A stretch of DNA of 64,000 nucleotides from an uncultured Prevotellaceae bacterium (GCA_902789415.1 CADAOD010000021.1:5030-69029); one strand, 5' to 3'; positions 20,900-54,774 are shown, counted from the first letter of the stretch. The notes: a model not told the origin generated them from the letters alone. Translations and numbers: made by a program.

Positions 20900-20971
20900 G
20901 GTCGATTCATCTAATGGTTAGGATACAAGATTCTCAATCTTGGCATAGGGGTTCGATTCCCCTATCGACTA
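20900..20971 (+). tRNA. tRNA-Glu(CTC), copy 2; integration target
   Basis: Identical to copy 1 over 72 nt; 3' end duplicated at 54504-54518. Confidence 0.93.
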
Positions 20972-20972
20972 C
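20958..20972 (+). repeat. attL core
   Basis: TCCCCTATCGACTAC, same as 54504-54518. Confidence 0.9.
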
Positions 20973-21226: not shown

Positions 21227-21656
21227 CCTGGTCTTTTCAGCAAGAAATCGACAAAATTACACTGTAATAGTGCATTTTCTTTAAAATTTTGCACTGCTTT
21301 AGTGCATTTAAGGATTACATTGTCATGGATGACATAGAATATGGCTCCGGCAGCATCATTACTCCTCCGGGCTTTCGGTTTGACCTACTGATTGTTTCAG
21401 AGGAACGCAGTTCCTCCCGTAGTTCTTTTCTTCCTTTGTCGTTTTCTTCCAAAAAGATTTTCATACATTGTCGCTTTAATACAATTTCTTCTTTCTACGT
21501 GTTCTTAATTAACAATAGAAGAAAGGGGGAAAGAAGAGTACTGAGTACCCTTCTCTTCTAAACCCCCTGCAGTAAGAGTTAGAGTACTCTTCTTGCGCGC
21601 GCGCACGAGGTTAATCGCCCTGTAAATCGGTGTTACAGCATATTTTTTGCTTCGAG

Positions 21657-21782
21657 TTTTCACTACTCGGCGCGGCATTTTCACTACTCGGCGCGGCATT
21701 TTCACTACTCGGCGCGGTGAGTTTTCACTACTCGGCGCGGCATTTTCACTACTCGGCGCGGCATTTTCACTATTCGGCGCGG
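21657..21782. repeat. Six iterons (19-bp core TTTTCACTACTCGGCGCGG, 21-bp period); candidate replication origin
   Basis: Units at 21657, 21678, 21699, 21722, 21743, 21764; no spacers; Rep-like gene nearby. Confidence 0.8.
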
Positions 21783-21826
21783 TAGTTAAATAATGTTTAT
21801 TTCTTGGATGTTAGAAATAATCTTTG

Positions 21827-22695: not shown

Positions 22696-22762
22696 TAAAT
22701 GTGTTAAATCAAGACAAAGTTTTGAATTTTTATGGCGGTCAAAAATGTATTTCCGATCTTTG
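22696..22762 (+). promoter_or_regulatory. Conserved 20-bp box plus -7 promoter element (copy 1)
   Basis: TAAATGTGTTAAATCAAGAC 22696-22715; GATCTTTG at 22755. Confidence 0.75.
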
Positions 22763-28044: not shown

Positions 28045-28111
28045 TAAATGTGTTAAATCAAGAGGAACTTTCTCTTGAATTTGTACACTTTGGGGAATAA
28101 ATGTATCTTTG
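28045..28111 (+). promoter_or_regulatory. Conserved box plus -7 promoter element (copy 2)
   Basis: TAAATGTGTTAAATCAAGA 28045-28063; TATCTTTG at 28104. Confidence 0.75.
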
Positions 28112-28148: not shown

Positions 28149-30170
28149 TTGAAAGTTATGTCAGAACCGAGAAATAAGCAAATCTTTCAAGATTTAGAAT
28201 ATGTCTTTGACAGGTATTACAGGGAGAATATCGCCCCTGTGGTCAAGGGTCAGATGGACTACCTCAAGAAGAAGCAGTCCGAGGAATACGTGCGTATGCT
28301 TGATAGCCGTCCTGTTGCTCCTGGCCAGTCTGGTATGATGCATGCCTCCATGGTTGCTCAGGAGGCCCATCTTGTGGGCGAGTGGAATAGCAAGACCTCC
28401 GACGACCTCCTGAAGATGGTTGACGGTAAGCTTGGTAAAAACAAGAATCTTCAGCATGACTTTGAGGTGTTTGTTGATGCCTGGCGCTTGACTGCCGTAA
28501 AGGAGATGGGGAAGCAGCGTTATGCTGAGCTTTCCGCAAAGTGTCCTTCCAAGGATCTTGCTAAAGAGTTCATTTCTAACCGTTTTATGCAGTTGGAACT
28601 TGAACAGCTTGCCAAAGCACAGGTTCCCAAGTCCTCCTTGGAGTATATTATGAAGAAAGGCTTTGGTGATTCATTCCCAGCCTTTCTTTCTGGCATGTCC
28701 ATGCCGGAAGGTCAACATGACCATATAATCAAGAATCTCGCAGAGAAGATGTATGATCCAAGTTCTGCAGAGAAGCTTGCTGCCTATACTACCACCTTCG
28801 TTGCCGATACCGCTACCACTGGTGGCTATGGTTCATGGACGAAAGCGGGTGTCTGGCTTGGTTTCGAGGTTCTCGCCCGTTCTGGTTTGGCATTATTAGA
28901 TGACAATACGACTTTCGATCAAGTCTTGGGAAAGGAGTTATATGGAGACGAGAACGCCTTTGCTTCTATTCGGTCTAATGGCAAGAAGGTAAAAGTCGCT
29001 CAGTCAGAGATCGTTCACGCTGTCAATGACTGCCTAAACAAGCCCATGACTATTCCTGAGTACCGGCCTCTTTACAGTCCTTCATGGCAAAAGGCGCGTT
29101 GTGACGAGCTAACAAATGCAGCTGGAGGTGACGCTTCTCTTCACATGGAAAATGTGCTTTCTGTATCAAGGAAGTATGGATTGAAACCCTCTGCCGTCTC
29201 TAACGTGCCAGGATGGATGTTTCAGAAGAGCCAGCAACAGTGTATTGAATTAAGCAGCTATTTTCTTTCTACTGCCTTAACCATGCAGCGTAGCAAGATG
29301 AAGATGCAGACTATTAACGGCCAGAAGTTTACTTTTGACGAGATTATTCAGAGAGCATATGACTATGCCCGTGCTGCCGATCAGATGCAGAAACAGGCAG
29401 AGAAACCCCAGGTGCAGACTGCATCAGTTGCCGTTTCTTCTCAGCAGGCTACTGCACAAAGTCAGGAACAACGTCAGTATCAGCCACAAGTCCAGCAACA
29501 GCAATATGCCGTACAGCAGCAGTATCAGCAGGGACAGCCTTTGCCCCAGCAGATGCAGCAATCTGCTGTTAACTACCAGACAGAAGGTATGAATGGCTGG
29601 CATAGTATGATGAGCCAGTTAGGTCTATCAAATATGGGAGATATCGGTCATAACCTTGGTTATGTCATTGCCATGTTGCCTGATATGCTTGTTGGTATGC
29701 TGACGGGTAAGAGTAGTAGTCTTCGTCTGAATGATAATCTTCTGCCTTTCGGTGCCATCTTTGCTGGAATGTTTGTAAAGAATCCGCTTTTGAAGATGCT
29801 TCTGATTGGTCTTGGTGGTGCCAATATCCTTAACAAGGCAGGTCACAATCTCTTGGAGAACTCTGGAGTCCAGACTTCCCAGCAGCGTCCAAAGCAGTAC
29901 GTCCAGCATAAAGACGAATTACTTTCCGAGCGCATTGAGCAGCCTGCCATGAAGGGCAATGCCCTTTTAGCCACTATAGACCATAAGCCCTGTGTTATCT
30001 ATATCGACGAGCAGAGTGCCGATGCCTACTATCAGGGTAAGCTCCCTCTTAACGTTCTCTGTAATGCTGTTCTGAGGAAGTATGATGAACAACAGTCTGC
30101 TGTCAGAGATAATTATGACCGTAGTGTTTCACAAGGTCAGGAACGGCAACAGACTCTCGGAATTAAATAG
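28149..30170 (+). CDS. Conjugative-element-associated hypothetical protein with a Gln-rich linker
   Basis: GEWNSKT, GMLTGK..L..NLLPFGAIFAGMFVKNPLLKMLLIGLGGANILNKAG recalled from Prevotella conjugative elements; function unknown. Confidence 0.7.
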   Translation: MKVMSEPRNKQIFQDLEYVFDRYYRENIAPVVKGQMDYLKKKQSEEYVRMLDSRPVAPGQSGMMHASMVAQEAHLVGEWNSKTSDDLLKMVDGKLGKNKNLQHDFEVFVDAWRLTAVKEMGKQRYAELSAKCPSKDLAKEFISNRFMQLELEQLAKAQVPKSSLEYIMKKGFGDSFPAFLSGMSMPEGQHDHIIKNLAEKMYDPSSAEKLAAYTTTFVADTATTGGYGSWTKAGVWLGFEVLARSGLALLDDNTTFDQVLGKELYGDENAFASIRSNGKKVKVAQSEIVHAVNDCLNKPMTIPEYRPLYSPSWQKARCDELTNAAGGDASLHMENVLSVSRKYGLKPSAVSNVPGWMFQKSQQQCIELSSYFLSTALTMQRSKMKMQTINGQKFTFDEIIQRAYDYARAADQMQKQAEKPQVQTASVAVSSQQATAQSQEQRQYQPQVQQQQYAVQQQYQQGQPLPQQMQQSAVNYQTEGMNGWHSMMSQLGLSNMGDIGHNLGYVIAMLPDMLVGMLTGKSSSLRLNDNLLPFGAIFAGMFVKNPLLKMLLIGLGGANILNKAGHNLLENSGVQTSQQRPKQYVQHKDELLSERIEQPAMKGNALLATIDHKPCVIYIDEQSADAYYQGKLPLNVLCNAVLRKYDEQQSAVRDNYDRSVSQGQERQQTLGIK

Positions 30171-30173
30171 ACA

Positions 30174-30218
30174 TGACATATTGCTACTCCTTATTTAGGG
30201 GTAGCGATATGTCTTTTT
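30174..30218 (+). terminator. Terminator
   Basis: GACATATTGCTACTCC/GGGGTAGCGATATGTC plus T run. Confidence 0.8.
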
Positions 30219-30299
30219 ATTGATGCATAAAAATATGGAATAAGCTTTTTCTCATTCTGCTTTTCTCTTGATTAAGACAATTTAAGACGATGAAATTTC

Positions 30300-30366
30300 T
30301 AAATGTGTTAAATCAAGACAAAGTTTTGAATATTTTATCGCGTGTGTTATATAAAAGATAACTTTG
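30300..30366 (+). promoter_or_regulatory. Conserved box plus -7 promoter element (copy 3)
   Basis: TAAATGTGTTAAATCAAGAC 30300-30319; TAACTTTG at 30359. Confidence 0.75.
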
Positions 30367-30404
30367 TCAGAAACAGGAAAATATTAAACTAAAATAAATA
30401 AATT

Positions 30405-31256
30405 ATGTCAGTAGGTTTATTTGCAAAATTAGCGAAAGAGGCAGCTCCGATATTAGAAAACCAATCGGCGCTAAAGGCTGCTGGTAAGGTTGCTAAATAT
30501 GGTGGGATTACCCTTGGAGTAGGTGGTTTCGGAATCTATCATATGATTACCGGCAAGGGTCTTGTTGACGTTGCTGGTAATACCATCCTTGGTGAAGAGT
30601 ATGAGAAGGAAGGCCTTGCAGGTGTTGTAAAGAAGAAAGCCACTGGTACCGCTGGAGCCGACAAAGGTCTTGTAGAAGGTGTTACGGATGCTGCAATGGG
30701 TGCAGGCACCTATCAGAAGATTGGCGATACTGCCGATCAGGTAGTTGACTCAGTAGGTAACGGTGTTCGAGCCGCCCGTGATGCAGCAGGAAATCTTATT
30801 TCCGGTGCTGCCGGAGCTGTTCAGGGTATGGCTGGCGGTGGTCAGCAGCAGCCGACGTATGCCGATCCCAATACAGGCTATGTTCCCCAGCAGACAATGA
30901 TGAATGGCGGTGCAAGTCAGTTTACAGGCATGTTCAACAGCGTTCCTCAGATGATAGGTAATATGACAGGCAGCAATGTCACATTGACAAATCTTGCAGG
31001 TCTTATTGCCTCTGCTTACATGATGATGGGGCCTTTTGGTTGGATGGGTAAGATTGCCAGTCTGTTGACAGGTAATATGGCATTGAAGTCCATGCGCCAG
31101 CAGCCTGCATATGCGATGCCCCAGCAGGGCTATTACCCCCAGATGCAGCAGGGCTATTACCCCCAGATGCAGCAGCCCTATTACCCTGCTGCTCAACCAT
31201 CTCCGCAGCAGCAACAGGAAGACAATAATCCCGTTTATCGTTCAAGACATCTATAA
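30405..31256 (+). CDS. Gly/Ala-rich putative membrane protein with QQGYYPQM repeats
   Basis: ORF track; hydrophobic Gly-rich segments; 24-bp tandem repeat at 31122-31186. Confidence 0.7.
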   Translation: MSVGLFAKLAKEAAPILENQSALKAAGKVAKYGGITLGVGGFGIYHMITGKGLVDVAGNTILGEEYEKEGLAGVVKKKATGTAGADKGLVEGVTDAAMGAGTYQKIGDTADQVVDSVGNGVRAARDAAGNLISGAAGAVQGMAGGGQQQPTYADPNTGYVPQQTMMNGGASQFTGMFNSVPQMIGNMTGSNVTLTNLAGLIASAYMMMGPFGWMGKIASLLTGNMALKSMRQQPAYAMPQQGYYPQMQQGYYPQMQQPYYPAAQPSPQQQQEDNNPVYRSRHL

Positions 31257-31266
31257 TTTGAATACT

Positions 31267-32046
31267 ATGAACTCTATAAGATTATATAGTTTCTTCATTC
31301 TTTTCTCTGTGTCATTACTTTCGCACGGACAGATGACCTATAACCACGATCCTGTGGTGATGAACCAGTTCATGAAGGCTGAGATCGGTTCCGGTACCCT
31401 TGGTGCAGGTTATTTTTATGCAGAACAGGTTTATTATGGTCAACTGCACAAAGGATATCGTAATATGGCCAATAATCCAGCCAATAATAAGCTTGCCAGC
31501 AGAACGTTGACCTATGCCGAAGTCTTAAAGCAGGAAAATTATGCTCTTCAGATAAAGGACTCCTTAGAGAAACGTGCTGAGATAGAACTCCTGAACATGG
31601 CAGATCGTCAGCTTGATGTAGAGTGGTTGGTAGAGAAAGAAAAGATTGAACGTCAGCAAGCCATATTCAAAAAGAGCATCCAGGATATTGTCTATTACGG
31701 TGGAACATCCTCTGATAAGACAAACTGGACAACCATTTATAATATGGTCCAGGAAAGTCTTGATGCTGCCCACGATGCTTATATGCCCAATAGCCAGCGT
31801 AAGGCTGTTTATCTGCTCCTTTATAAGGACTTGTGCACTTACAATACCACTCTTAATGAATGTAAGGCAAAGTGGTGGGCAGCCCGTTCCGTCCGCAATA
31901 ACGAAGGTGTTTCGCAGAAATTTACCAAGAATCGCTCCATGATATCTGATTGTTATGGACGTTGGAAGCTGGCATGGGCAGGTAAGAAGGGTAACGCCGG
32001 TGGCGTTCCTGGTAGTGGTGCCATCGGTATTGATGCTGGTAAATGA
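31267..32046 (+). CDS. Secreted conjugation-associated protein, DUF5045-like (start moved to ATG 31267)
   Basis: Signal peptide; TYNHD..KRAEIELLNMADRQLDVEW..DAYMPNSQRK. Confidence 0.65.
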   Translation: MNSIRLYSFFILFSVSLLSHGQMTYNHDPVVMNQFMKAEIGSGTLGAGYFYAEQVYYGQLHKGYRNMANNPANNKLASRTLTYAEVLKQENYALQIKDSLEKRAEIELLNMADRQLDVEWLVEKEKIERQQAIFKKSIQDIVYYGGTSSDKTNWTTIYNMVQESLDAAHDAYMPNSQRKAVYLLLYKDLCTYNTTLNECKAKWWAARSVRNNEGVSQKFTKNRSMISDCYGRWKLAWAGKKGNAGGVPGSGAIGIDAGK

Positions 32047-32062
32047 TACAAAAGAATATAAT

Positions 32063-32755
32063 ATGAAACAATTCCTTTACATATTGATTTTGTTTTCTTT
32101 GTGTCTGACTGCAACGGCCCAGACTGTTTCTGAGACAAATGGCACTCAGATAGCTGCTATCAGAGGTCTCGGCGGAAAAATCAGCAAGGAGATATCTAAG
32201 CAGACTACTTCACAGACCAAGACGGACCTGTTGGCAGGTGCCATCGGTACGGAGTTCCTGGCCATCAAAGGCTGGGAAGGAAAGTATAACTCATATCTGA
32301 AGACGGCACAGGGTTATGCAGAGGGCCTGAAAGGGGCTGTTACGCTCTATGCCGAAGGGGTGACAACGCTTCGTCATCTGTATGAGATAACGAAGGCCAT
32401 CAAGAATAACCCCCAAGGGGTGATGGCTACCGTGTCGATGAACAACCTCTATGCCGAGACAGCAGCAGAGCTGATTAAGGTATATAACGTTCTGAAATAC
32501 ACAATAGCCGTAGGCGGTAAGACAAACATGCTGACAGGCGCAGAGCGTACCGAGCTGTTATGGGAAATCAATGACAGCATGCAGGACTTTAACCGGAAGC
32601 TTCGCCAGCTGGCTCTCAGTATCGCATACTATAACATGACGGATGTCTGGAACAGGGCGACAACAGGACTGATAGAGCGGAACCACGGCGAGATAGCCCG
32701 TCAGGCCTACGGGCGGTGGGTAAGAGCACAGACGGCATATAAGAACCTTCAATAA
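32063..32755 (+). CDS. Secreted helical conjugation-associated protein (start moved to ATG 32063)
   Basis: Signal peptide; WEGKYNSYLKTAQGYA..NPQG....SMNNLY..NMLTGAER recalled from Prevotella tra regions. Confidence 0.65.
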   Translation: MKQFLYILILFSLCLTATAQTVSETNGTQIAAIRGLGGKISKEISKQTTSQTKTDLLAGAIGTEFLAIKGWEGKYNSYLKTAQGYAEGLKGAVTLYAEGVTTLRHLYEITKAIKNNPQGVMATVSMNNLYAETAAELIKVYNVLKYTIAVGGKTNMLTGAERTELLWEINDSMQDFNRKLRQLALSIAYYNMTDVWNRATTGLIERNHGEIARQAYGRWVRAQTAYKNLQ

Positions 32756-32761
32756 AATATT

Positions 32762-33847
32762 ATGGCAAAGAAAAATATAATTGCAACAGACCAAGACACC
32801 CAAGAATTAAAGAAAAAAGTGAAGACAGAGAATAAGGGTGATGTCGAGCAACCAAAGATTTACCAAACGGACATGATGGTAAATAATGGTGGTGGCAAGC
32901 GATTAGCCACTATCAGCGAGGAGGCAGTGCTTCGTACCCAGAATCTCAATGTTGCCACCATTACTTCTCATAAAGGAGATGGACATACCTTTGAGATTAG
33001 CAATATGAGTGTTGAATCTGCCATGGAGGATCTTGACAGGGCGTGTAATTATCGTACTGGTGGACAATATTCCGATGACATCAAAGCGTTATTGAATGAC
33101 AAATATCTACTCCATGCGCTGGTGGACGGACAGGATGTCCAGATGGTTATATCAAAGGAAGATCATGACCGTTTCCTTAAAGCTAACGAAGAGAACCGCC
33201 TTGAAATCGTCCGTCAGATTCTTGACATAGATCCTGGTCATATTAAAAGAGGTCAAGATGTTGAAAATCTGGTAGTTCAGGTTAAATCTACAGACGGGAA
33301 ATTATCTACGTCTCACCATGTCTTTGACGATGAAGGGTTACGTCGTTATGAAAATGAACTGGGACACAAACTTATACCGCCCAAGCCACAAATAATTGAG
33401 GATGCAAAGACAAGCATCCAAAAACAAGAGAATGATTATAAATTGACTATTATCTTGGACGGTAAAGTCTATAACGCCACAATGACACAGCAGCAGCACG
33501 ACAAAATGATGGCCTTGGATGATCGTCAGAAAGTCAACTTCCTCCAAAAGCTGTTGCCGGAAGCAAACATCAAAGGACAGTCAACCGACACACAACAAGC
33601 CATCCTGCAAACTCTGAATAACTCCCTCTATAATATACAGCCTAAAGCAGAGGTATATGCCTCGGCTACGCAAAGCCAAGGTAATCAGCGGACTGCGCCC
33701 AATGTTCAAGAAAGACTATCCGAAAACCAATCTCTTAATTCATCCCTTCACACAAACCTGTCAGAGATGACTGCAGCCTGCTTTGAACAGTTAGACAGAG
33801 ACAGCCAGGAGATTGCCCAGTCAGAACATAGAGGTCTTAGCATGTAA
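32762..33847 (+). CDS. Conjugative-element-associated hypothetical protein
   Basis: EEAVLRTQNLNVATITSH.GDGHTF..MEDLDRAC, with an internal duplicated domain (ISKEDHDRFL / MTQQQHDKMM). Confidence 0.65.
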   Translation: MAKKNIIATDQDTQELKKKVKTENKGDVEQPKIYQTDMMVNNGGGKRLATISEEAVLRTQNLNVATITSHKGDGHTFEISNMSVESAMEDLDRACNYRTGGQYSDDIKALLNDKYLLHALVDGQDVQMVISKEDHDRFLKANEENRLEIVRQILDIDPGHIKRGQDVENLVVQVKSTDGKLSTSHHVFDDEGLRRYENELGHKLIPPKPQIIEDAKTSIQKQENDYKLTIILDGKVYNATMTQQQHDKMMALDDRQKVNFLQKLLPEANIKGQSTDTQQAILQTLNNSLYNIQPKAEVYASATQSQGNQRTAPNVQERLSENQSLNSSLHTNLSEMTAACFEQLDRDSQEIAQSEHRGLSM

Positions 33848-33849
33848 TT

Positions 33850-35076
33850 ATGGTACACCCTGACAACATATCAAGCAAACCAGATTTCAGAGTGATTATA
33901 GCTGGAGGACGTGACTTCAATGACTACGCTCTTCTCAAAGCCAAATGTGACAACATATTGGCTGAGAAAACGGCTACACATCGGATAGTCATCGTGTCTG
34001 GAGCTGCCAGAGGTGCTGACAGCCTCGGTGAACGGTATGCCCGTGAACATGGCTATACTCTCGACTCTCACCCTGCCGACTGGAATACTCACGGAAAATC
34101 TGCCGGATATGTTAGAAACGCTCAGATGGCAAACAGTGCCGATGCCCTGATAGCATTCTGGGACGGTCATAGTCGAGGAACCAAGCATATGATTGACACA
34201 TCAGTCAGAAATGGGCTGTCAGTGAGAACAATATTATACGCAAATCAGATAACAAAGAATAATATGGAAGTAAAACAACAATCACACTCCGATATAGACT
34301 ATCTTATAGATGAAGACAAGAACGAAGTTATTGTCGAAGCGGATGAAATAGAAACCGATGAATTATGTAGCATCGGTAAAGCAATGGGAGGACAATTAAG
34401 TACGACAAAGAATGGTCGCATCATGTTTACGTTTAATACGCTGCAAGAAGGTCACCATTTTGGTTCGACTATGGTAGAACTTGCCAAGGCCAGAGCCATC
34501 GGAAATAAGAATCTCGCCGATAAAATTCTTGAAAAGGCGTATTCCTCCAATAATCAAAGCTCACATTCTTCCCAGGATACAGAATTGGAATCGTTAAAAA
34601 ACAAGGTGAGTCAGTACGCTATCGAGCATATAACTGGTAAGGGTTCGCACAGTGGCATAGCCTGGTTCCGCGACTCCTTCAATGAGTACTGCGATGCGAT
34701 AGGTGCCAACGAGTACGATCCCGATGACCTAAGTTTTGAAATTGAAGATCTCGTAGATAACATAAAAAAAGCCCCATGGGTGGCTGAAATAGCAGGCAAA
34801 CCAACAGATAAACGCACTACGGCTGACATTGACCGTGTTGTCAAAGATTTCATCTGCGAATATTGGCTGATGCAACCGGAAGAGGTAACCACCAAGAATG
34901 TTGCCGACGTCCTGAAAGTTGCAGATCCACTCAGCCACCGTCATCTTGTAGGACAGAAGATAGCCATCGATTGCATCCATGCGCTCAACCAGGAGCAGTT
35001 ACAGCAACTCGATGCTGTTCTGCGAGATCTCGAGAAAAATCCCAACCTCGGCAAAACAAACGAATTAAAAATATAG
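33850..35076 (+). CDS. SLOG-superfamily (DUF2493/YspA-like) domain fused to an uncharacterised C-terminal region
   Basis: RVIIAGGRDF, VSGAARGAD..GERYA, DW..HGKSAGYVRNAQM..ADALIAFWDG.SRGT.HMI. Confidence 0.85.
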   Translation: MVHPDNISSKPDFRVIIAGGRDFNDYALLKAKCDNILAEKTATHRIVIVSGAARGADSLGERYAREHGYTLDSHPADWNTHGKSAGYVRNAQMANSADALIAFWDGHSRGTKHMIDTSVRNGLSVRTILYANQITKNNMEVKQQSHSDIDYLIDEDKNEVIVEADEIETDELCSIGKAMGGQLSTTKNGRIMFTFNTLQEGHHFGSTMVELAKARAIGNKNLADKILEKAYSSNNQSSHSSQDTELESLKNKVSQYAIEHITGKGSHSGIAWFRDSFNEYCDAIGANEYDPDDLSFEIEDLVDNIKKAPWVAEIAGKPTDKRTTADIDRVVKDFICEYWLMQPEEVTTKNVADVLKVADPLSHRHLVGQKIAIDCIHALNQEQLQQLDAVLRDLEKNPNLGKTNELKI

Positions 35077-36262: not shown

Positions 36263-37279
36263 ATGATAGTAAAGGACAAACATTTTAATGCAGCACTTTT
36301 CGCTGGTAATTTAAATGACGGCATCCGAGATTTGGACGCTGCCGACGTACCTACTTTGAAAGAACTTTCAAAGATTGAGGACCATTATGTTAATGTGCTG
36401 AATATTCATGACGTCACATGTTCGAGGCGGTTTAATCCTATTCAACACAAGTATATTCCAACCCTTCAGGATGCTCTTATCCTTTCAGAAAGGATAACAA
36501 GCACATTTTGGAATGAAGAGGATTGTATGCCCAGATATTTTCAGCTCTACAAGGAAATATCGTCTGACATCCTTGCCGCTTGCATATGGTTTTTCGTAAA
36601 CTACAAAAAAATGCCATACGACAAAGATAGAAGACAGCTATACCCTGAATACTGCAAGGACATCGAGACGGGTAACATGAAGCCGACTGGTCGAGTATTT
36701 GACTCAGAAGCGAATATGATTCCCACAACACCAGACTATTGGCTCGGGAAATACTCCGACTTACCACATATTCTTTCCTTCCTGTGTCATGACTATAGTG
36801 AAATCATTGATATTCTTAAGACAGTTCCAGAAATTTATCCATTAATTACACCACTTATATCCAGCTGGCAGGACAAGACTATGGATCTGGTTGAATTGTT
36901 TACCATACCTCTCAGGACAATGTTAAACAAATTCTGTACTCCGGAGGCCTACTGGGTATTTCATCGTGACGGCGATGATTTCGACCTGAGAAGGAACGAA
37001 AACCTTCTTATCATAAACTGTCGCGAAGGATATGAGAAGGCTATGAATATGATGTCGATTCTTGTTACAGGGAAAGTTCCCGAACAGAGAATTATGGAGA
37101 TAAGCAACAAATATCCTTGGCGCGATACCATAATTGGAAATTTGACAGCCAAAATCTATGATTTTCGCCCTTACGAAACGAAGGAGAAAGTTCTTCTCGA
37201 AAACATGGAAAATGTTAACAGAGATGTGAACAATCTTATTTGTGAAATTCAGCAAGTATACAAATTTTTATATAAATAG
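36263..37279 (+). CDS. Stand-alone all-alpha-domain homologue of a VirD4/TraG-type coupling protein
   Basis: SRRFNPIQ.KYI, LAACIWFFVNY, KPTG.V.D, YWLGKYSDLPHILSFL, YWVFHRDGDDFDL match the recalled Prevotella T4CP core; no Walker A, Walker B or TM segments. Confidence 0.7.
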   Translation: MIVKDKHFNAALFAGNLNDGIRDLDAADVPTLKELSKIEDHYVNVLNIHDVTCSRRFNPIQHKYIPTLQDALILSERITSTFWNEEDCMPRYFQLYKEISSDILAACIWFFVNYKKMPYDKDRRQLYPEYCKDIETGNMKPTGRVFDSEANMIPTTPDYWLGKYSDLPHILSFLCHDYSEIIDILKTVPEIYPLITPLISSWQDKTMDLVELFTIPLRTMLNKFCTPEAYWVFHRDGDDFDLRRNENLLIINCREGYEKAMNMMSILVTGKVPEQRIMEISNKYPWRDTIIGNLTAKIYDFRPYETKEKVLLENMENVNRDVNNLICEIQQVYKFLYK

Positions 37280-45669: not shown

Positions 45670-47631
45670 TCATCTTTTTTTTGTCGTTTTCTGGCTCTGT
45701 GACGAAGATCTGCGAGGTAAGAACATGTTGAACATATTCTGCCACCATCTATACTTGTCATCGCTATCCTTGGGCAGTTCATTATTTTCCCCACCACCGA
45801 CACCCGTACTCTGCATAGCAGAGAGTATCATGCCAAGATATCCCTTCACTACATTATCCCTGACTTCTGAATAGATATTATTTTTGTATGGCGTATACCC
45901 CTCTATCTCGTTAATAAGATGCCGCGACATCAATTCCAGGGTAGGCAGATGTAAGATATCCATTTTTTCTTCATAACCTCGAGCGACTATACCCTTTGCT
46001 ATCCCAATTATATTTTCTTCGAGTATTTCTTTGCGCGAGAAAGGATCCTTGAACATATTCTCAAATATATTTCTTGCATTCTCAATATCATCAAGACACT
46101 TTTCGTGTATTGTCGGCTCGGTCTGTACTGGGGTATGATGATGAGCAGGACGCGTAGAAACCGGCTTCTGAGTGACCATAGGAGTCGGTTTGATAATCTG
46201 CTTCTTTTTCTTTCCCATAGCGACATAATTAGCATATGCTACAGCGGCATCAGCAGTCTTTTCGGCTTCTTTTCTATCACCATTATCATTTTCGTAGATA
46301 GCTTTATCCAACAAATATAAGGCTTTTTCTCTTGCTTCTTCAACCGTCATTTCCAGATCATCAAGGTTAGGTGAATATATACCATTGGTTGAGACATAAT
46401 TTCTATCGCATTCCTCTATAATATACTCTGCTAATTCATAATCCCGAATAGTACTACGATCAAATGGCTCTTCATCGAGATATGCCATTTCGTCATCTGG
46501 TATCTTTTCTGATTGGATGACATCTACTGTATGGGCGGCTTCATTTGAAGATATGACAGTTCCTTTCTCCTGTCCTTTTCTCCATTCTGGATTAAGAAGC
46601 TGCTCCAATGGCATAATATCACTGCCCTTGAATACAATTTTCTTATTATTATCAACTATAGTGTAGCCTTTGACTTCACCGTCCCACTTCGAGAACACTA
46701 CAGACAGTCCGAATTTCGCTTTCAATTCCTCCAGGAACTGCTTAAACTGTGCCTTTCTGATACCCTTGATGTCTTCACCCAAGGCGTTCTGGCCATCGAA
46801 AGCAGCCCCCTTTACACCCTTCTTACTGTCAGTAGCAGTATGCTTTTTCCCCTTCTTTGTCTTCACGACTTCCGGGTCATCCACCAGGTAGTCCATCGAC
46901 CTGCGCCGGTGGTCAAGTATGATACCTTTAAGCTGCTTGATACGATCCTTCTCGTTATCTTTATTCTTGCCTGTTGCTTCTATCTGGTTATTTATTTCTT
47001 CATCGGTAAAGTTAGTAAGAACCTCTTGAGCACGCCTTACGTGTACCACGCCGAGTTCACTATTGTAGTATGACTGACGATATCCTACAGCGCGTAGTAG
47101 ATTAAGAAACTGTTCCCTCGACTCGAACTTATATTTCAGTAGATTCTCCAGCTTATCTTTTTTGTTATACCCTAACAATTTATCGAGTATGCGCCGGGCT
47201 TTTATGCCCTCGCAGTAATTGTCTATCCATTCTCCTGTAGTCTTGTTAACTGTCACCGTGGCACTATGTATATGGTAATGACCAGAGTCAAGATGCCCCC
47301 AGAACACCATTGGTTGTCCTGCATATCCCATATCTTCAAGCACCTTGATCCCCAGTTCCAACAATCGTTGTTTATCCTCTTCTGTCGGCTTTCCGGGCAG
47401 GGAAAACATCGTATGTTTCTGTGGGTGCACTACCTGAGGATTACGGTCGGCTATCTTCTTTAAATACCTACTTAGCACTACCGGAGAATGTATATTATAC
47501 TTCTCCAGCTCACCGAAATTCTTCATTCCGAGGAATATCGCTTTACCCTCTGCTACCTTCTTCTCGTTGTAGAAACAGGCCGCGAAAGTAGTAGCATCAT
47601 TCCCCAATATTTTCACGTTTGCTCTATCCAT
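45670..47631 (-). CDS. MOBP-type relaxase
   Basis: Motif I ACFYNEKKV; motif III VFWGHLDSGHYHIHS. Confidence 0.88.
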   Translation of the reverse strand: MDRANVKILGNDATTFAACFYNEKKVAEGKAIFLGMKNFGELEKYNIHSPVVLSRYLKKIADRNPQVVHPQKHTMFSLPGKPTEEDKQRLLELGIKVLEDMGYAGQPMVFWGHLDSGHYHIHSATVTVNKTTGEWIDNYCEGIKARRILDKLLGYNKKDKLENLLKYKFESREQFLNLLRAVGYRQSYYNSELGVVHVRRAQEVLTNFTDEEINNQIEATGKNKDNEKDRIKQLKGIILDHRRRSMDYLVDDPEVVKTKKGKKHTATDSKKGVKGAAFDGQNALGEDIKGIRKAQFKQFLEELKAKFGLSVVFSKWDGEVKGYTIVDNNKKIVFKGSDIMPLEQLLNPEWRKGQEKGTVISSNEAAHTVDVIQSEKIPDDEMAYLDEEPFDRSTIRDYELAEYIIEECDRNYVSTNGIYSPNLDDLEMTVEEAREKALYLLDKAIYENDNGDRKEAEKTADAAVAYANYVAMGKKKKQIIKPTPMVTQKPVSTRPAHHHTPVQTEPTIHEKCLDDIENARNIFENMFKDPFSRKEILEENIIGIAKGIVARGYEEKMDILHLPTLELMSRHLINEIEGYTPYKNNIYSEVRDNVVKGYLGMILSAMQSTGVGGGENNELPKDSDDKYRWWQNMFNMFLPRRSSSQSQKTTKKR

Positions 47632-47633
47632 TG

Positions 47634-48332
47634 TTACTCCTCTTCTTTATTATATCTACTTTCAAGTTCATCTATTAACAGATAAACAGGCAGCTCGCCA
47701 TAACCATCAACATTCCCACTGATATAGTCCTGTAAAGCTCGTAAAAGTTGTCCTACTTTCACTTTAAAATTTCCTACAGGAGGGAATACCAGGCATCTGG
47801 TAAGCAGCTCATCTTCCTTTAAAAGAATATCCGAAATAGCGTTTTTATCGTTCACTACAGTTTCTTTATATTCCCTTATAAGAGTTCGTATAGATGCCAT
47901 ATTTTCAAGGGTGCCATCCCTGAACTGTAGCAATTCTCGACGTTGTTCTGATACCTCCGTTCCGTTTTCCTCAGCCTTCAACATCAGCAGATTTATCTTC
48001 TTCGCTATCTGGTTGACGTTGTTTCCGAGGCGGTTAATCTCTTCTATTATTCGCCTGAAGTCTGCTTCGAAGGTCGCGAGAACCATACGGTTATCAGCGA
48101 TACATTTTACCAGAGAGTCAGCATCTTTAAGACTCACTCCGACGCCATCATCCATGTGGTTTACTGCGTACCTTATCATATTACTAAGGGAGTATTTGGG
48201 CTTGCCGAAACCGTTCATAGATCTCGCAACCCATTTCCCCTTATCCCTTTCACGAAGGTGTATCTGGTTATCATTTCTCTTCTTTCCAGATACCCTTACC
48301 GGCTTCATTTTTTTGTCTTCCATCATCATCAA
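47634..48332 (-). CDS. MobC-like relaxosome accessory protein
   Basis: EINRLGNNVNQIAKKIN motif; directly upstream of the relaxase. Confidence 0.85.
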   Translation of the reverse strand: MMMMEDKKMKPVRVSGKKRNDNQIHLRERDKGKWVARSMNGFGKPKYSLSNMIRYAVNHMDDGVGVSLKDADSLVKCIADNRMVLATFEADFRRIIEEINRLGNNVNQIAKKINLLMLKAEENGTEVSEQRRELLQFRDGTLENMASIRTLIREYKETVVNDKNAISDILLKEDELLTRCLVFPPVGNFKVKVGQLLRALQDYISGNVDGYGELPVYLLIDELESRYNKEEE

Positions 48333-48511: not shown

Positions 48512-48660
48512 CAAAGATACGTAGTAGCTTTGTGGTTGCCGAAATTCGGCAAACATTCGTCTTGATTTAACACATTTAAGACGGCGAAAATTCTAAATGA
48601 GTTAAATCAAGACAAAGTATGTGTTTTTTTAGGGTATCTGAAAGATTTTTTCGACCTTCG
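48512..48660. promoter_or_regulatory. Divergent promoters with an inverted pair of the conserved box (copies 4 and 5)
   Basis: Reverse box 48559-48578 with TATCTTTG (minus) at 48519-48512; forward box 48594-48613 with GACCTTCG at 48653. Confidence 0.75.
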
Positions 48661-52913: not shown

Positions 52914-54263
52914 CTATTGCTTGTCAAACAATAACATTGCATCCTCTTTAGCCTTGTCAGCTATTTCAATGTATGGTTTCATGGCCGAATAATCGCTGTG
53001 TCCTGTCCATTTCATCACTATCTGAGGGGCGATGCCAAGCATCAGAGCGTTACAGATGAAGGTTCTACGTCCTGCATGAGTGGACATCAGCTGATACTTA
53101 GCATAGACTTCGTCTACACGTTGGCTGCCACGATAATAAGTGACAGGAATAGCCTCGTTAAAGCCAACAATCTCAGCCATCTCCTTCAGATAGTCATTCA
53201 TTCGCTGGTTGCTGATAACAGGAAGGACCTTATCATACGGAAAATTATCCTTTCGGTATTTGTTCAAGATAGCTTTGGCATACTTGTTCAATTCGATCTT
53301 CAAGGAGTCACCGGTTTTTACGGTCGTTATTTGAATATAGCCAGGGAAAAGATTGCTTCGCTTTAGGTTTTCGACGTCAGAATAACGTAAAGAAGTGAAA
53401 CAGCAGAAGCAGAACACATCCCTAACACGTTCAAGAGTGGACTTTTCAAGCCCCACACGCTTCTCGTATTCATATCCGTGGACATCGACAAGGGTCAGCT
53501 TCGTTCCGACGTCAGGAAAGCTAAATTCATAGAGCTTCATCAGTTCGTCCCAATCCAGGAAGACGATAGGTTTCTTAGTCTTCTGAAGTTTTGGCCTAAA
53601 ATTGGCCTTTATGGACGTGTAACCTTTATTTTCTGCCCACCGGATGAAGTATCGCAGACGGCTTGTGTATTTTTCAATCGTAGAATTACGTAGAAACTTT
53701 ACCTCACGAAGAAAATCTACAAAGTACGTAGTTCCATCTTCGTTAAAATAATCGATGGAGGTTACATGTTTATAGTCAAAGAAATCAGTCATGTGCTTCT
53801 GGAACGACTTCATACTTTTGCTCGTTGCCAAACGCCAGCTATTTTTGTCTTTCTGTTCTTCCAAGAAATCTGACAACCGTTTTCTGATGTCATCTGGTAG
53901 TTCTTCTTTCTCTTCAGTTGTTTCTACCTTCTGCTTTTTGAAGTTCTCGTTATAGATGCTTTTCAGGTCACCCACAGTCTGACCATTTCTCCGTAGTTCG
54001 TCCTCATATTCACTAAAAAAGCTATCTATACGTTTCAACTTACTGTTTAACTCGCGGGCAGTAAGAGAACCTATCATCACTGGTTTACCAGCGTATGAAA
54101 GTAGAATTCTCTGAGTGTCCTGATTCCAGTACTCAGGTTTTATAGAGAAACCTGCAGTCGTGGTGAGGCGCTTGCCTTGAATACAGATAGCACATCTCAC
54201 TGTAACGTCGCCATCTCCACGCTTCTTCTCTCTGGTTTTATCTAAGAAAAATCTGACTGACAT
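52914..54263 (-). CDS. Tyrosine integrase
   Basis: Arm-binding N-terminus; SLRYSD, TVKT, HAGRRTF, WTGHS..MKPY catalytic R-K-H-R-H-Y. Confidence 0.95.
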   Translation of the reverse strand: MSVRFFLDKTREKKRGDGDVTVRCAICIQGKRLTTTAGFSIKPEYWNQDTQRILLSYAGKPVMIGSLTARELNSKLKRIDSFFSEYEDELRRNGQTVGDLKSIYNENFKKQKVETTEEKEELPDDIRKRLSDFLEEQKDKNSWRLATSKSMKSFQKHMTDFFDYKHVTSIDYFNEDGTTYFVDFLREVKFLRNSTIEKYTSRLRYFIRWAENKGYTSIKANFRPKLQKTKKPIVFLDWDELMKLYEFSFPDVGTKLTLVDVHGYEYEKRVGLEKSTLERVRDVFCFCCFTSLRYSDVENLKRSNLFPGYIQITTVKTGDSLKIELNKYAKAILNKYRKDNFPYDKVLPVISNQRMNDYLKEMAEIVGFNEAIPVTYYRGSQRVDEVYAKYQLMSTHAGRRTFICNALMLGIAPQIVMKWTGHSDYSAMKPYIEIADKAKEDAMLLFDKQ

Positions 54264-54376: not shown

Positions 54377-54503
54377 TTTTTCGAAATATGCAAGTTTTTA
54401 GCCAGTTTTAATCAGTTATTTTAAATTTATTTAATTAACTGAATATTAGTAATTTAGGAAAAGAGGCTTTAATGTGGTTCGAAATTAGACCCTCCTTGGA
54501 GAG

Positions 54504-54518
54504 TCCCCTATCGACTAC
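54504..54518 (+). repeat. attR core
   Basis: tRNA-Glu 3' end TCCCCTATCGACTAC followed by a terminator-like hairpin at 54524-54554. Confidence 0.9.
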
Positions 54519-54774
54519 AACTCAAGAGCTTCCGTTTTCACGGGAGTTTTTTTTATTCCCTAAAACTAAGTTTTGTATGATGTTTCCCGAAGTACATAAC
54601 AGCGCACAGCTCACCGAGCTAATTAGCAGCATAGGTTTCACACCTTATTTATATAGGTGAAATGGTGTAGAAATAACAAATTGTGGCAGAAATCGCAAAA
54701 TTTCTGCCATTTTATTTGTTTATTTCACAAAAAAGCTATACTTTTGCAGTCGTAAACAATAAAACGAAAGAATT

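What the first reader, a model, noticed from the sequence alone, without database searches (positions are those of the whole stretch)
28149..33847. Selective subset of conjugation-associated genes without a T4SS core
Seen: five tra-region-like genes (673, 283, 259, 230 and 361 aa; two with signal peptides) behind two of the conserved boxes. I recognise no VirB4/TraG ATPase, TraJ/K/M/N or intact T4CP anywhere between the att sites. Together with relaxase, oriT, replicon and the AAD-only protein, the inference is a satellite that remodels a helper Prevotella T4SS with its own subunits, as SGI1 does with IncC TraN/H/G, rather than a decayed ICE. The ORFs are intact and have terminators.
Basis: partly seen in the sequence, partly recalled or inferred. 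Interest (0 to 1): 0.62.

Follow-up and report, generated by a model that had tools for sequence, protein, structure and literature searches.

The report
Mobilizable element carrying borrowed conjugation-machine genes
A 33.5-kb mobile island of a rumen Prevotella-type bacterium cannot build its own DNA-transfer machine. It still keeps, under selection, its own versions of four accessory genes of that machine, behind the same control box that precedes the machine genes of related self-transmissible elements. It therefore probably tunes a helper's machine, a trick so far known from Salmonella island SGI1.

Summary
Five intact ORFs (673/670, 283, 259, 230 and 361 aa) lie at 28149-33847 inside an att-flanked 33.5-kb element at tRNA-Glu. 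The element has an integrase, a replicon and a relaxase, but no VirB4, motor T4CP or TraJ/K/M/N.

- **Tra-operon homologues.** Three genes (w673, w283, w259 = DUF5045) are homologues (45-78% aa) of conserved members of an 18-gene tra operon. That operon is found in Prevotella plasmid pE2-28 and in rumen ICEs.
- **w230.** It is a remote paralogue of the gene next to DUF5045 in those operons. It shares their signal peptide and C-terminal 'RW' tail.
- **w361.** It has no tra counterpart and is deleted in close relatives.
- **Shared control box.** Both promoters carry a 19-bp box that also precedes the element's rep and mob operons and the tra operons of the related ICEs.
- **Selection and recurrence.** All five genes are under purifying selection (dN/dS 0.06-0.33), and indels are in frame. 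The w259+w230 pair recurs on other backbones with no T4SS core gene on the available contigs. Element and ICE copies interleave in the tree.

A decayed ICE is therefore unlikely. An SGI1-like satellite that adds its own parts to a helper's T4SS is the best reading, but incorporation, the helper's identity and the benefit are inferred. No fold or family assigns a biochemical role.

The parts
20955..20972 (+). attL: 3' end of the second tRNA-Glu(ctc), repeated at attR
   Evidence: repeat family D7
28045..28063 (+). 19-bp regulatory box 1 (TAAATGTGTTAAATCAAGA). It is followed by the dyad TCAAGAG-N7-CTCTTGA and by the -7 element TATCTTTG at 28104-28111.
28149..30170 (+). w673 (probable start ATG 28158, 670 aa). 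Layout: conserved all-alpha N domain (~410 aa), Q-rich disordered linker, conserved Gly/Met-rich hydrophobic hairpin, small beta+alpha C domain. It is a homologue of the last conserved gene of the ICE/plasmid tra operon.
30175..30213 (+). intrinsic terminator after w673 (17-bp stem plus T run)
30300..30318 (+). 19-bp regulatory box 2; -7 element TAACTTTG at 30359-30366
30405..31256 (+). w283: Gly/Ala-rich and Q/Y/P-rich protein without a signal peptide. It is a homologue of the tra-operon gene that directly precedes the M23 peptidase gene.
31267..32046 (+). w259: DUF5045 (PF16464) exported all-alpha protein with an RW tail. It is an orthologue of the T4SS-operon gene that lies between virB4-p898-p285a and traJ.
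32063..32755 (+). w230: exported all-alpha protein with an RW tail, from a large family (>=350 clusters at 50% identity). It is a remote homologue of the T4SS-operon gene p285a/p245.
32762..33847 (+). w361: sparsely distributed hydrophilic protein of variable presence. It shares only a short motif with the genes at the same module position elsewhere.
22696..22714 (+). same box in front of the DUF3853/rep/DnaB/ParA operon
48560..48612 (.). two divergent copies of the box (48560-48578 minus strand, 48594-48612 plus strand) in front of the mob operon and of ORF 48728
36263..37279 (+). motor-less T4CP paralogue (AAD-only). A 38%-identical homologue directly follows the w673 homologue in ICE L014.
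45670..48332 (-). relaxase (653 aa) and MobC/NikA-like accessory protein (232 aa)
52914..54263 (-). tyrosine integrase
54501..54521 (+). attR repeat of the tRNA-Glu 3' end

Best explanation
The block is the mating-apparatus accessory module of an integrative mobilizable element (IME), about 20973-54521. The element can excise, replicate and nick its own oriT, but it cannot build a type IV secretion system.

Shown:
- w673, w283 and w259 are diverged copies of conserved genes of the tra operon of a family of Prevotella/Bacteroidales conjugative plasmids and ICEs. These encode a Bacteroidota-type (MPF_B) T4SS in which virB4 is followed by p898, p285a and DUF5045.
- w230 belongs to the same exported, helical, 'RW-tailed' group as those three post-virB4 genes.
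- All five genes are intact and under purifying selection.
- Both transcription units start behind the same 19-bp box plus Bacteroidota promoter. The same arrangement precedes the element's rep and mob operons and the tra operons of the related rumen ICEs.

Inferred:
- One activator, encoded by the ICE or by the element, switches on helper T4SS genes and the element's genes together.
- The element's exported proteins (w259, w230) and membrane-associated proteins (w673, w283) then enter or dock on the helper's machine, in place of or beside the helper's own versions.
- This biases the machine towards transfer of the element, by substrate choice together with the motor-less T4CP paralogue, by escape from exclusion, or by recipient contact.
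- w361 is an optional add-on.

This is the logic by which SGI1 uses IncC plasmids, here with unrelated proteins in another phylum.
For: - **Core absence.** Pfam/NCBIfam scans of all element ORFs found no T4SS core gene. BLASTP of all element ORFs against the ICE L006/L014 matched only w673, w283, w259 and w338.
- **DUF5045 synteny.** All 80 genome loci have T4SS-operon neighbours, and 67 show VirB4. The order is VirB4-p898-p285a-DUF5045-TraJ-K-L-M-N.
- **Complete plasmid.** pE2-28 carries the whole operon, ending in w283h-M23-p94-w673h. The same order holds in four divergent ICE lineages.
- **w230 link.** hhalign gives p233 versus p285a 94% probability and w230 versus p285a 83%. The RW tail is present in 88-96% of members of the five families and in 0% of seven control families.
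- **Box.** Five copies lie in the window against 0.02 expected. The same box, at the same distance from a TAnnTTTG promoter, precedes the tra operon in L003, L006, L016-L018, L102-L104 and L107. It also precedes module genes in L008, L098, L099, L101 and L109. It is absent from pE2-28 and from the gut Bacteroides ICE loci.
- **Selection.** dN/dS is 0.06-0.33 for all five genes. Variants in four bovine metagenome runs differ only by substitutions and in-frame indels.
- **Recurrence.** Modules containing w259+w230, with no T4SS core gene on the contig, occur on other backbones (L008-10, L098, L099, L101, L109).
- **Exchange.** Element and ICE copies of DUF5045 interleave in the tree, with at least 3 switches. 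The window's copy is sister to an ICE copy with support 98/95.
- **Transcription.** Bovine metatranscriptome contigs cover parts of w673-w230.
Against: - No helper ICE could be sought in the window's own genome, because the genome search was shut. Laying an ICE tra operon on the runs that hold the element gave only conserved fragments.
- No protein could be assigned a T4SS role. There were no Pfam/NCBIfam names beyond DUF5045 and no PDB fold match.
- Parts are dispensable in close relatives. w361 is a 10-codon stub in L096/L097. w673 is deleted and w283 is an 87-aa stub in L109.
- The box could be served by an activator that each element encodes for itself, without cross-talk.
- Most contigs with no T4SS core gene are short (7-22 kb), so a distant T4SS on those other elements cannot be excluded.
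- RNA coverage is low, and DNA carry-over is possible.
Confidence: 0.55

Rival explanations
1. Interference or exclusion. The element's diverged copies of T4SS accessory proteins act against conjugative elements. They could be dominant-negative subunits that lower the helper's own transfer (fertility inhibition), or exclusion factors that block entry of related ICEs into the host.
For: The homology, co-regulation and selection data are the same as for the main reading. Exported and membrane locations fit exclusion proteins. Variable gene content among close relatives and repeated exchange with ICE lineages fit an arms race. SGI1-family islands also inhibit their helpers (abstract of bioRxiv 10.1101/2025.04.21.649884).
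Against: The genes sit in the same regulon as the element's own rep and mob operons, so they are made when the element itself prepares to transfer. An exclusion function would usually be expressed constitutively in the resident cell. Four or five genes is many for exclusion.
Confidence: 0.2
2. The genes are a cargo or establishment module not tied to the donor's T4SS. Envelope-acting proteins would be expressed in the new host after entry, or would serve cell-surface functions unrelated to DNA transfer, and would merely travel with mobile elements.
For: In the ICEs and in gut-type modules, the w283-M23-w673 genes lie next to polyvalent ArdC/MutS_I proteins, SSB and cell-wall hydrolases, which are typical early or establishment genes. 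The w230 family is very large (524 clusters). It gives a weak profile hit to a helical pore-forming protein, XaxA (E 0.03).
Against: In pE2-28 and the ICEs the genes are contiguous with, and partly overlap, traN-side genes of the tra operon. DUF5045 lies in the middle of the operon in 80 of 80 loci. In the window the block is about 15-20 kb from the relaxase/oriT region, so it is not in the leading region.
Confidence: 0.15
3. The block is a remnant of a decayed ICE: left-over tra genes that survived deletion of the T4SS core and have no present function.
For: Gene loss does occur in relatives. L003 shows a tra operon that stops after traJ.
Against: All five ORFs are intact, with dN/dS 0.06-0.33 and only in-frame indels. 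The gene order differs from every ICE: w673-w283-w259-w230, against DUF5045 mid-operon and w283...w673 at the operon's end. The parts have different nearest ICE lineages. w673 is 77% identical to the L102 type, while w283 and w259 are 76-78% identical to the L006/L016 type. Each unit has its own box promoter. The same pair recurs on unrelated backbones. Close relatives have no tra operon.
Confidence: 0.05

Closest known systems
[quoted passage not shown]
   Same: Both are integrated mobilizable islands with their own integrase, replicon and mobilization functions and no T4SS core. Both encode diverged copies of a few helper mating-apparatus genes. In both, the island's promoters carry the same regulatory box as the helper's tra genes (AcaCD/SgaCD boxes in SGI1).
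   Different: The phylum differs (Bacteroidota) and so does the T4SS class (MPF_B-like rather than MPF_F). The proteins are unrelated to TraN, TraH or TraG, and none has an assigned role. The regulator is unknown. Substitution of subunits and helper dependence are not demonstrated here.
Bacteroides mobilizable elements (NBU1/NBU2, Tn4555, Tn4399) mobilized by CTnDOT-type conjugative transposons (own knowledge; PMC5704250 for IMEs in general)
   Same: These are integrated elements of Bacteroidales with an integrase and a relaxase/oriT that rely on a co-resident conjugative element's T4SS.
   Different: To my knowledge those elements carry no tra-operon homologues. This one carries three or four, plus a motor-less T4CP paralogue, a replicon with iterons and DnaB/ParA, and a shared box regulon.
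MPF_B T4SS of CTnDOT (traA-traQ; Guglielmini et al. 2014, PMC4027160)
   Same: The ICE/plasmid operons that hold the homologues have DUF4134 (TraE-like), DUF4133 (TraF-like), VirB4 (TraG), TraJ, TraK (NCBIfam TIGR03781 above cut-off), TraM and TraN in the CTnDOT order. DUF5045 sits directly before traJ, the position that TraI takes in CTnDOT. PMC4027160 proposes TraI as VirB5-like.
   Different: The TraH/TraI positions are filled by p898, p285a and DUF5045, which match no named Tra family. The operon also ends with w283h-M23-p94-w673h, genes not described for CTnDOT.
tra operon of plasmid pE2-28 of Prevotella sp. E2-28 (NZ_CP091789.1)
   Same: It contains homologues of w259 (annotated 'DUF5045 domain-containing protein'), w283 and w673 within one 18-gene operon.
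   Different: It is a complete conjugative system on a 205-kb plasmid. It has no w230/p233-type gene and no 19-bp box in the 40 kb examined.

Membership tests
Pfam DUF5045 (PF16464), for w259 | Match to the family HMM above the gathering score | tested here: met
   41.9 bits against a cut-off of 29.9, E 1.3e-10, profile positions 4-84 of 85
Tra-operon component of the DUF5045-type Bacteroidales T4SS (w259, w283, w673) | Homologues occupy a fixed place in operons that hold VirB4, TraJ, TraK, TraM and TraN | tested here: met
   DUF5045: 80 of 80 genome loci have T4SS neighbours and 67 show VirB4. w283h and w673h flank the M23 peptidase gene at the operon's end in pE2-28, L006/L014, L102-104, L110 and L111.
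Tra-operon component of the DUF5045-type Bacteroidales T4SS (w230) | Detectable homology to an operon member | tested here: inconclusive
   No BLAST hit. hhalign gives 83% probability for w230 versus p285a and 94% for its paralogue p233 versus p285a. Signal peptide and RW tail are shared. The top 150 hits of the HMMER profile search are all w230/p233-type.
Tra-operon component of the DUF5045-type Bacteroidales T4SS (w361) | Homologue present in a tra operon | tested here: not met
   Only 4 database clusters. There is no hit in any ICE locus. Similarity to the genes at the same module position in L098/L101 is only 25-26%.
VirB5/TraC-type minor pilin (w259, w230) | Sec signal, about 220-260 aa, all-alpha | tested here: met
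VirB5/TraC-type minor pilin (w259, w230) | Gene lies after virB4 and before the virB6 analogue | tested here: met
   This is true of the ICE orthologues of w259 (directly before traJ) and of p285a. It is not true in the window itself.
VirB5/TraC-type minor pilin (w259, w230) | Sequence or fold similarity to solved VirB5-family structures | tested here: not met
   There was no PDB sequence hit. Foldseek found no match with E<1 for the w259 model. That model is only moderate (pLDDT 71, pTM 0.41), so the test is weak.
SGI1-like T4SS-reshaping mobilizable island | Integrated, with own integrase, att sites and relaxase, and without a T4SS core | tested here: met
SGI1-like T4SS-reshaping mobilizable island | Encodes homologues of subunits of the helper-type mating apparatus | tested here: met
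   w673, w283 and w259 are 45-78% identical to ICE tra-operon genes
SGI1-like T4SS-reshaping mobilizable island | Island promoters carry the regulatory site of the helper's tra genes | tested here: met
   An identical 16-19-bp box with the same promoter geometry lies before the element's operons and before ICE tra operons. Binding by a common regulator is not testable here.
SGI1-like T4SS-reshaping mobilizable island | A helper element is co-resident and needed for transfer; island subunits replace helper subunits | not testable with these tools
   The genome search and the fetch from genomes were shut. The read laying test was uninformative. This needs mating assays.
Decayed ICE remnant | Frameshifts or stop codons, relaxed selection, and close relatives with the full operon | tested here: not met
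   ORFs are intact. dN/dS is 0.06-0.33. Indels are in frame. L096, L097 and L109 have no tra operon.

The most novel reading that the evidence does not exclude
Rumen Prevotella carry a two-tier conjugation system. ICEs and plasmids supply the T4SS core. A diverse population of satellite elements carries interchangeable 'RW-tailed' exported proteins (DUF5045, w230/p233), membrane proteins (w283, w673) and a motor-less coupling-protein paralogue. All are wired to the ICEs' tra promoter box. These proteins re-fit the helper's machine and decide which DNA is sent, or to which recipient. This would be a Bacteroidota counterpart of SGI1-IncC built from undescribed protein families. The RW-tail proteins would be the functional equivalent of VirB5-type tip or contact proteins, or a membrane-inserting translocon.
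Probability: 0.35. Interest if true: 0.78.

Novelty: new variant of a known kind. Interest (0 to 1): 0.66.

Why it matters
Mobilizable elements are usually seen as passive users of a helper's transfer machine. SGI1 is the main studied exception. A second, independent case in Bacteroidota would suggest that supplying one's own machine parts, behind the helper's own control box, is a general strategy of satellites.

Bacteroidota is the phylum that dominates gut and rumen gene exchange. The finding also does three practical things:
- It names four uncharacterised protein families (DUF5045, w230/p233, w283, w673) as conserved parts of a widespread Bacteroidales T4SS whose architecture is hardly studied.
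- It points to a shared C-terminal RW tail as a likely docking signal.
- It gives a defined cis element (the 19-bp box) with which the regulation of transfer in rumen Prevotella can be tested.

Tried and rejected
- **Family libraries.** Pfam, NCBIfam, PHROGs and PADLOC gave nothing for w673, w283, w230 or w361.
- **PDB sequence searches.** Single sequences and profiles gave no significant hit. The XaxA hit (E 0.03) is kept only as a lead.
- **Structure models.** AlphaFold models of w259 and w673 were searched with Foldseek against the PDB. No match had E<0.01.
- **Literature.** 'DUF5045' occurs in no paper of the library. The 2025 T4SS nomenclature review does not treat Bacteroidota systems.
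- **Helper co-residence.** The genome tools were shut. L102 laid on four runs gave only conserved fragments.
- **P. massiliensis 'plasmid 38'.** I first read OY726012.1 as a 162-kb T4SS-less carrier of a related module. Its large ORFs are chromosomal (PFOR, LptD, glycoside hydrolases), so it is a mislabelled chromosomal contig and says nothing about T4SS absence.
- **Word share of 0.76.** I first read the ~0.76 share in many DNA runs as absence of w361. Laying the contigs showed w361 present and the deficit due to SNPs.
- **Earlier notes.** Searches by sequence and by words found nothing on this family.


Full report
**1. What is there**

The window holds an element bounded by the 3' end of the second tRNA-Glu(ctc) (20955-20972) and its 20/21-nt repeat at 54501-54521. 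G+C drops from about 0.50 in the flanks to 0.38-0.45 inside.

Inside the element lie, in order:
- iterons (21633-21804);
- a DUF3853 protein, a 506-aa Rep-like protein, a DUF6633 protein, DnaB and ParA;
- the five ORFs of the finding;
- a SLOG/YspA protein;
- a motor-less T4CP paralogue (36263-37279);
- an HNH protein;
- an MmeI-type restriction-modification enzyme;
- a relaxase with a MobC/NikA-like partner;
- SSB;
- a tyrosine integrase.

The five ORFs have exactly the reported sizes. Alignment with 28 homologues suggests that w673 starts at ATG 28158, which gives 670 aa.

No ORF matches VirB4, TraJ/K/M/N or a full T4CP, either by profile or by BLASTP against complete ICE tra operons.

**2. 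Where the five genes come from**

*w259.* It is a DUF5045 protein. Database homologues with long contigs lie inside Bacteroidota T4SS operons.

A scan of one genome per species found 267 relatives. In all 80 loci kept, the gene has T4SS-operon neighbours, and 67 show VirB4. The 13 without VirB4 are cut short upstream. The order is constant: DUF4134 x2, DUF4133, VirB4, a ~850-900-aa protein (p898), a ~245-285-aa protein (p285a), DUF5045, TraJ, TraK, TraL, TraM, TraN. NCBIfam confirms TraK above its cut-off and TraJ weakly. p898 and p285a have no named family.

*w283 and w673.* In the rumen ICEs (L006/L014/L016; L017/L102-104; L110; L111) and in the complete plasmid pE2-28 of a cultured Prevotella, the operon continues after TraN. 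It runs p170-180, a DUF1566/p247 lipoprotein, a w283 homologue, an M23 peptidase, a ~90-aa protein and a w673 homologue. Several of these genes overlap at stop and start. Identities to the window proteins:

| Window protein | Nearest ICE lineage | aa identity | Other lineages |
|---|---|---|---|
| w259 | L014/L016 | 76% | - |
| w283 | L015/L016 | 76-78% | - |
| w673 | L102 type | 77% | 54% to L014/L015; 33-36% to L111/L112 |

Thus three of the five genes are bona fide tra-operon genes, and their nearest ICE lineages differ. The block is therefore a mosaic.

In ICE L014, the gene right after the w673 homologue is a 38%-identical homologue of the window's motor-less T4CP paralogue.

*w230.* It has no BLAST match in those ICE spans. 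Its family, with its paralogue p233, is large: 524 clusters at E<=1e-3. Profile-profile comparison links it to p285a, the gene just upstream of DUF5045. The probability is 94% for p233 over about 200 columns and 83% for w230.

All five families (p898, p285a, DUF5045, w230, p233) share an N-terminal signal sequence and a C-terminal '..RW(K/R)..' tail. The tail is present in 88-96% of members, in none of seven control families from the same operons, and in 16% of all ORF products.

*w361.* It has only four database clusters and no tra counterpart.

**3. The module without a T4SS core recurs and is selected**

Close relatives of the element keep the same backbone and have no tra genes.
- L096 and L097 have ParA through w230 at 97-100% identity. 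Here w361 is reduced to a 10-codon stub by a clean in-frame deletion.
- L109 has ParA at 95% and w259 at 100%. Here w673 was removed by recombination between the two boxes, and w283 is an in-frame 87-aa stub.

More distant modules sit on other backbones:
- L008-10: w283h-p161-w259h-w230h-p233-TPR-glucosaminidase/M23, next to a different relaxase.
- L098 and L101: the same, with a 405- or 554-aa w361-like gene. L098 also carries DnaB, ParA and SLOG genes.
- L099: p505-TraJ-w259h-w230h.

The invariant pair is w259+w230. No T4SS core gene was found on these contigs, but they are only 7-22 kb long.

Pairwise dN/dS is 0.06-0.33 for every gene. For w230 against L109 it is 0.10 at dS 0.62, and for w361 against L109 it is 0.18.

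Contigs from four independent bovine studies carry all five genes at 95-100% identity. The only length changes are in frame: 45 nt in the w673 linker, and 21 nt and 3 nt in the w283 repeat.

In a DUF5045 tree, element and ICE copies interleave, and the well-supported branches force at least three switches. The window's copy is sister to the L014/L016 ICE copy with support 98/95.

Two bovine metatranscriptomes contain contigs at >=99% identity over parts of w673, w283, w259 and w230. Depth is low, and DNA carry-over cannot be excluded.

**4. The box**

TAAATGTGTTAAATCAAGA occurs five times in the window against 0.02 expected. The copies lie before the rep operon, w673, w283, the mob operon and ORF 48728. 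Each lies about 40-45 nt upstream of a TAnnTTTG -7 element.

The same box with the same geometry precedes three kinds of gene elsewhere:
- the first gene of the tra operon in L003, L006, L016, L017, L018, L102-104 and L107;
- the giant polyvalent-protein gene in L014 and L110;
- the module genes of the other elements (L008, L098, L099, L101, L109, L019).

It is absent from pE2-28, from L111/L112 and from the gut Bacteroides ICE loci. It therefore marks one rumen clade of ICEs together with their presumed satellites.

This is the strongest hint of a functional tie. The element's replication, mobilization and tra-like genes share a cis signal with the T4SS genes of the conjugative elements from which the tra-like genes were drawn.

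**5. What the proteins are**

No biochemical role can be assigned.
- **w259.** The model is all-alpha (pLDDT 71). Foldseek found no PDB match with E<1.
- **w673.** It has a confidently modelled all-alpha N domain (pLDDT 80-95). This is followed by a disordered Q-rich linker, a conserved Gly/Met-rich hydrophobic hairpin (low confidence) and a small beta+alpha C domain. No fold match was found.
- **w230.** The family profile gives a marginal hit to the helical pore-former XaxA (E 0.03 over about 160 residues). I keep this only as a lead.

By position, DUF5045 sits directly before traJ, where TraI sits in the CTnDOT order. Guglielmini et al. (PMC4027160) proposed TraI as a VirB5-like minor pilin. 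Membership in the VirB5 family was tested here and not met.

**6. Mechanism and rivals**

*Shown:*
- a mobilizable element with no T4SS core;
- tra-derived genes kept by selection;
- a box shared with ICE tra promoters;
- repeated exchange of these genes with ICEs.

*Inferred:*
- The genes are co-induced with a helper T4SS.
- The exported RW-tail proteins and the two membrane-associated proteins are incorporated into or dock on that T4SS.
- The result benefits the element's transfer, perhaps together with the motor-less T4CP paralogue.

I give this reading about 0.55. The rivals are interference or exclusion against ICEs (0.2), an establishment or cargo role independent of the donor T4SS (0.15), and a decayed ICE (0.05). 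The last is contradicted by gene order, mosaic origin, own promoters, selection and recurrence.

**7. Comparison and novelty**

The logic matches SGI1 and IncC plasmids, where the island carries its own TraN/TraH/TraG and AcaCD boxes (PMC5389848, PMC8373056). The phylum, the T4SS class, the protein families and the regulator are all different.

To my knowledge, Bacteroides mobilizable elements such as NBU1 and Tn4555 carry no tra homologues. I found no description of DUF5045 or of this operon architecture in the searchable literature.

I therefore rate this a new variant of a known kind. Interest is 0.66: the comparative evidence is coherent, but function and helper dependence remain untested.

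Noticed in passing
window 21633-21804: Eight tandem 21-23-bp iterons (TTTTCACTACTCGGCGCGGC) lie just inside attL, upstream of the first element gene. This is a probable oriV of the element's replicon.
   Followed up: no
L014 13093-14178 (ENA ERZ11466831 NODE_105): A full ICE also encodes a motor-less T4CP (AAD-only) paralogue, 38% identical to window 36263-37279. It lies directly after the w673 homologue. So the AAD-only protein is not peculiar to satellites and may work together with w673.
   Followed up: partly
L014 15662-20822; L110 12134 onward: A giant polyvalent protein gene (7075 aa in L014, with helicase, MutS_I, ART-PolyVal and other domains; 4681 aa in L110) follows the tra operon of the rumen ICEs. 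It has its own copy of the 19-bp box.
   Followed up: no
L003 1-14967 (ENA ERZ28655743 scaffold_1133): Behind the box lies a tra operon that stops after traJ (TraE x2, TraF, VirB4, p914, p282, DUF5045, TraJ-like 341 aa). It is followed directly by HTH, NikA and relaxase genes. No TraK-N is seen on the stretch examined. This is possibly another kind of partial system.
   Followed up: no
C-termini of p898, p285a, DUF5045, w230 and p233 families (e.g. window 31990-32010 and 32710-32730): These families share a C-terminal '(Y/L/R)(G/E/R)RW(K/R/L)(R/L/N)' tail. It is limited to the exported helical proteins encoded after virB4 and to their copies on the satellite elements. It may be a docking or sorting signal.
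   Followed up: partly
window 29470-29520 and 31122-31210: The Q-rich linker of w673 and the QQGYYPQM repeat of w283 vary between strains by in-frame indels (45, 21 and 3 nt). w283 contains a perfect 24-nt tandem duplication at 31122-31169.
   Followed up: partly
L113-L116 (OY726012.1, 'plasmid 38' of Phocaeicola massiliensis): This record, labelled a circular 162-kb plasmid, carries PFOR, LptD and many glycoside hydrolases, so it looks like a chromosomal contig. Next to erm(G) it holds a gut-type module: w361-like, toprim, bPH, w230h, p233h, w283h, M23, w673h, polyvalent ArdC/MutS_I, hydrolase, SSB. The same module is on IMG/VR contigs L118 and L120.
   Followed up: partly
window 33850-35076: The SLOG/YspA-domain gene (408 aa) starts 3 nt after the w361 stop and belongs to the same transcription unit. 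In L098 its homologue has its own copy of the box, so it too belongs to the regulon.
   Followed up: no
P0120-P0125 in alignment A3: Several w673 homologues are recombinants. Their N domain is like the L014 type, while their linker and C part are nearly identical to the window type. This shows domain-wise exchange within the family.
   Followed up: no
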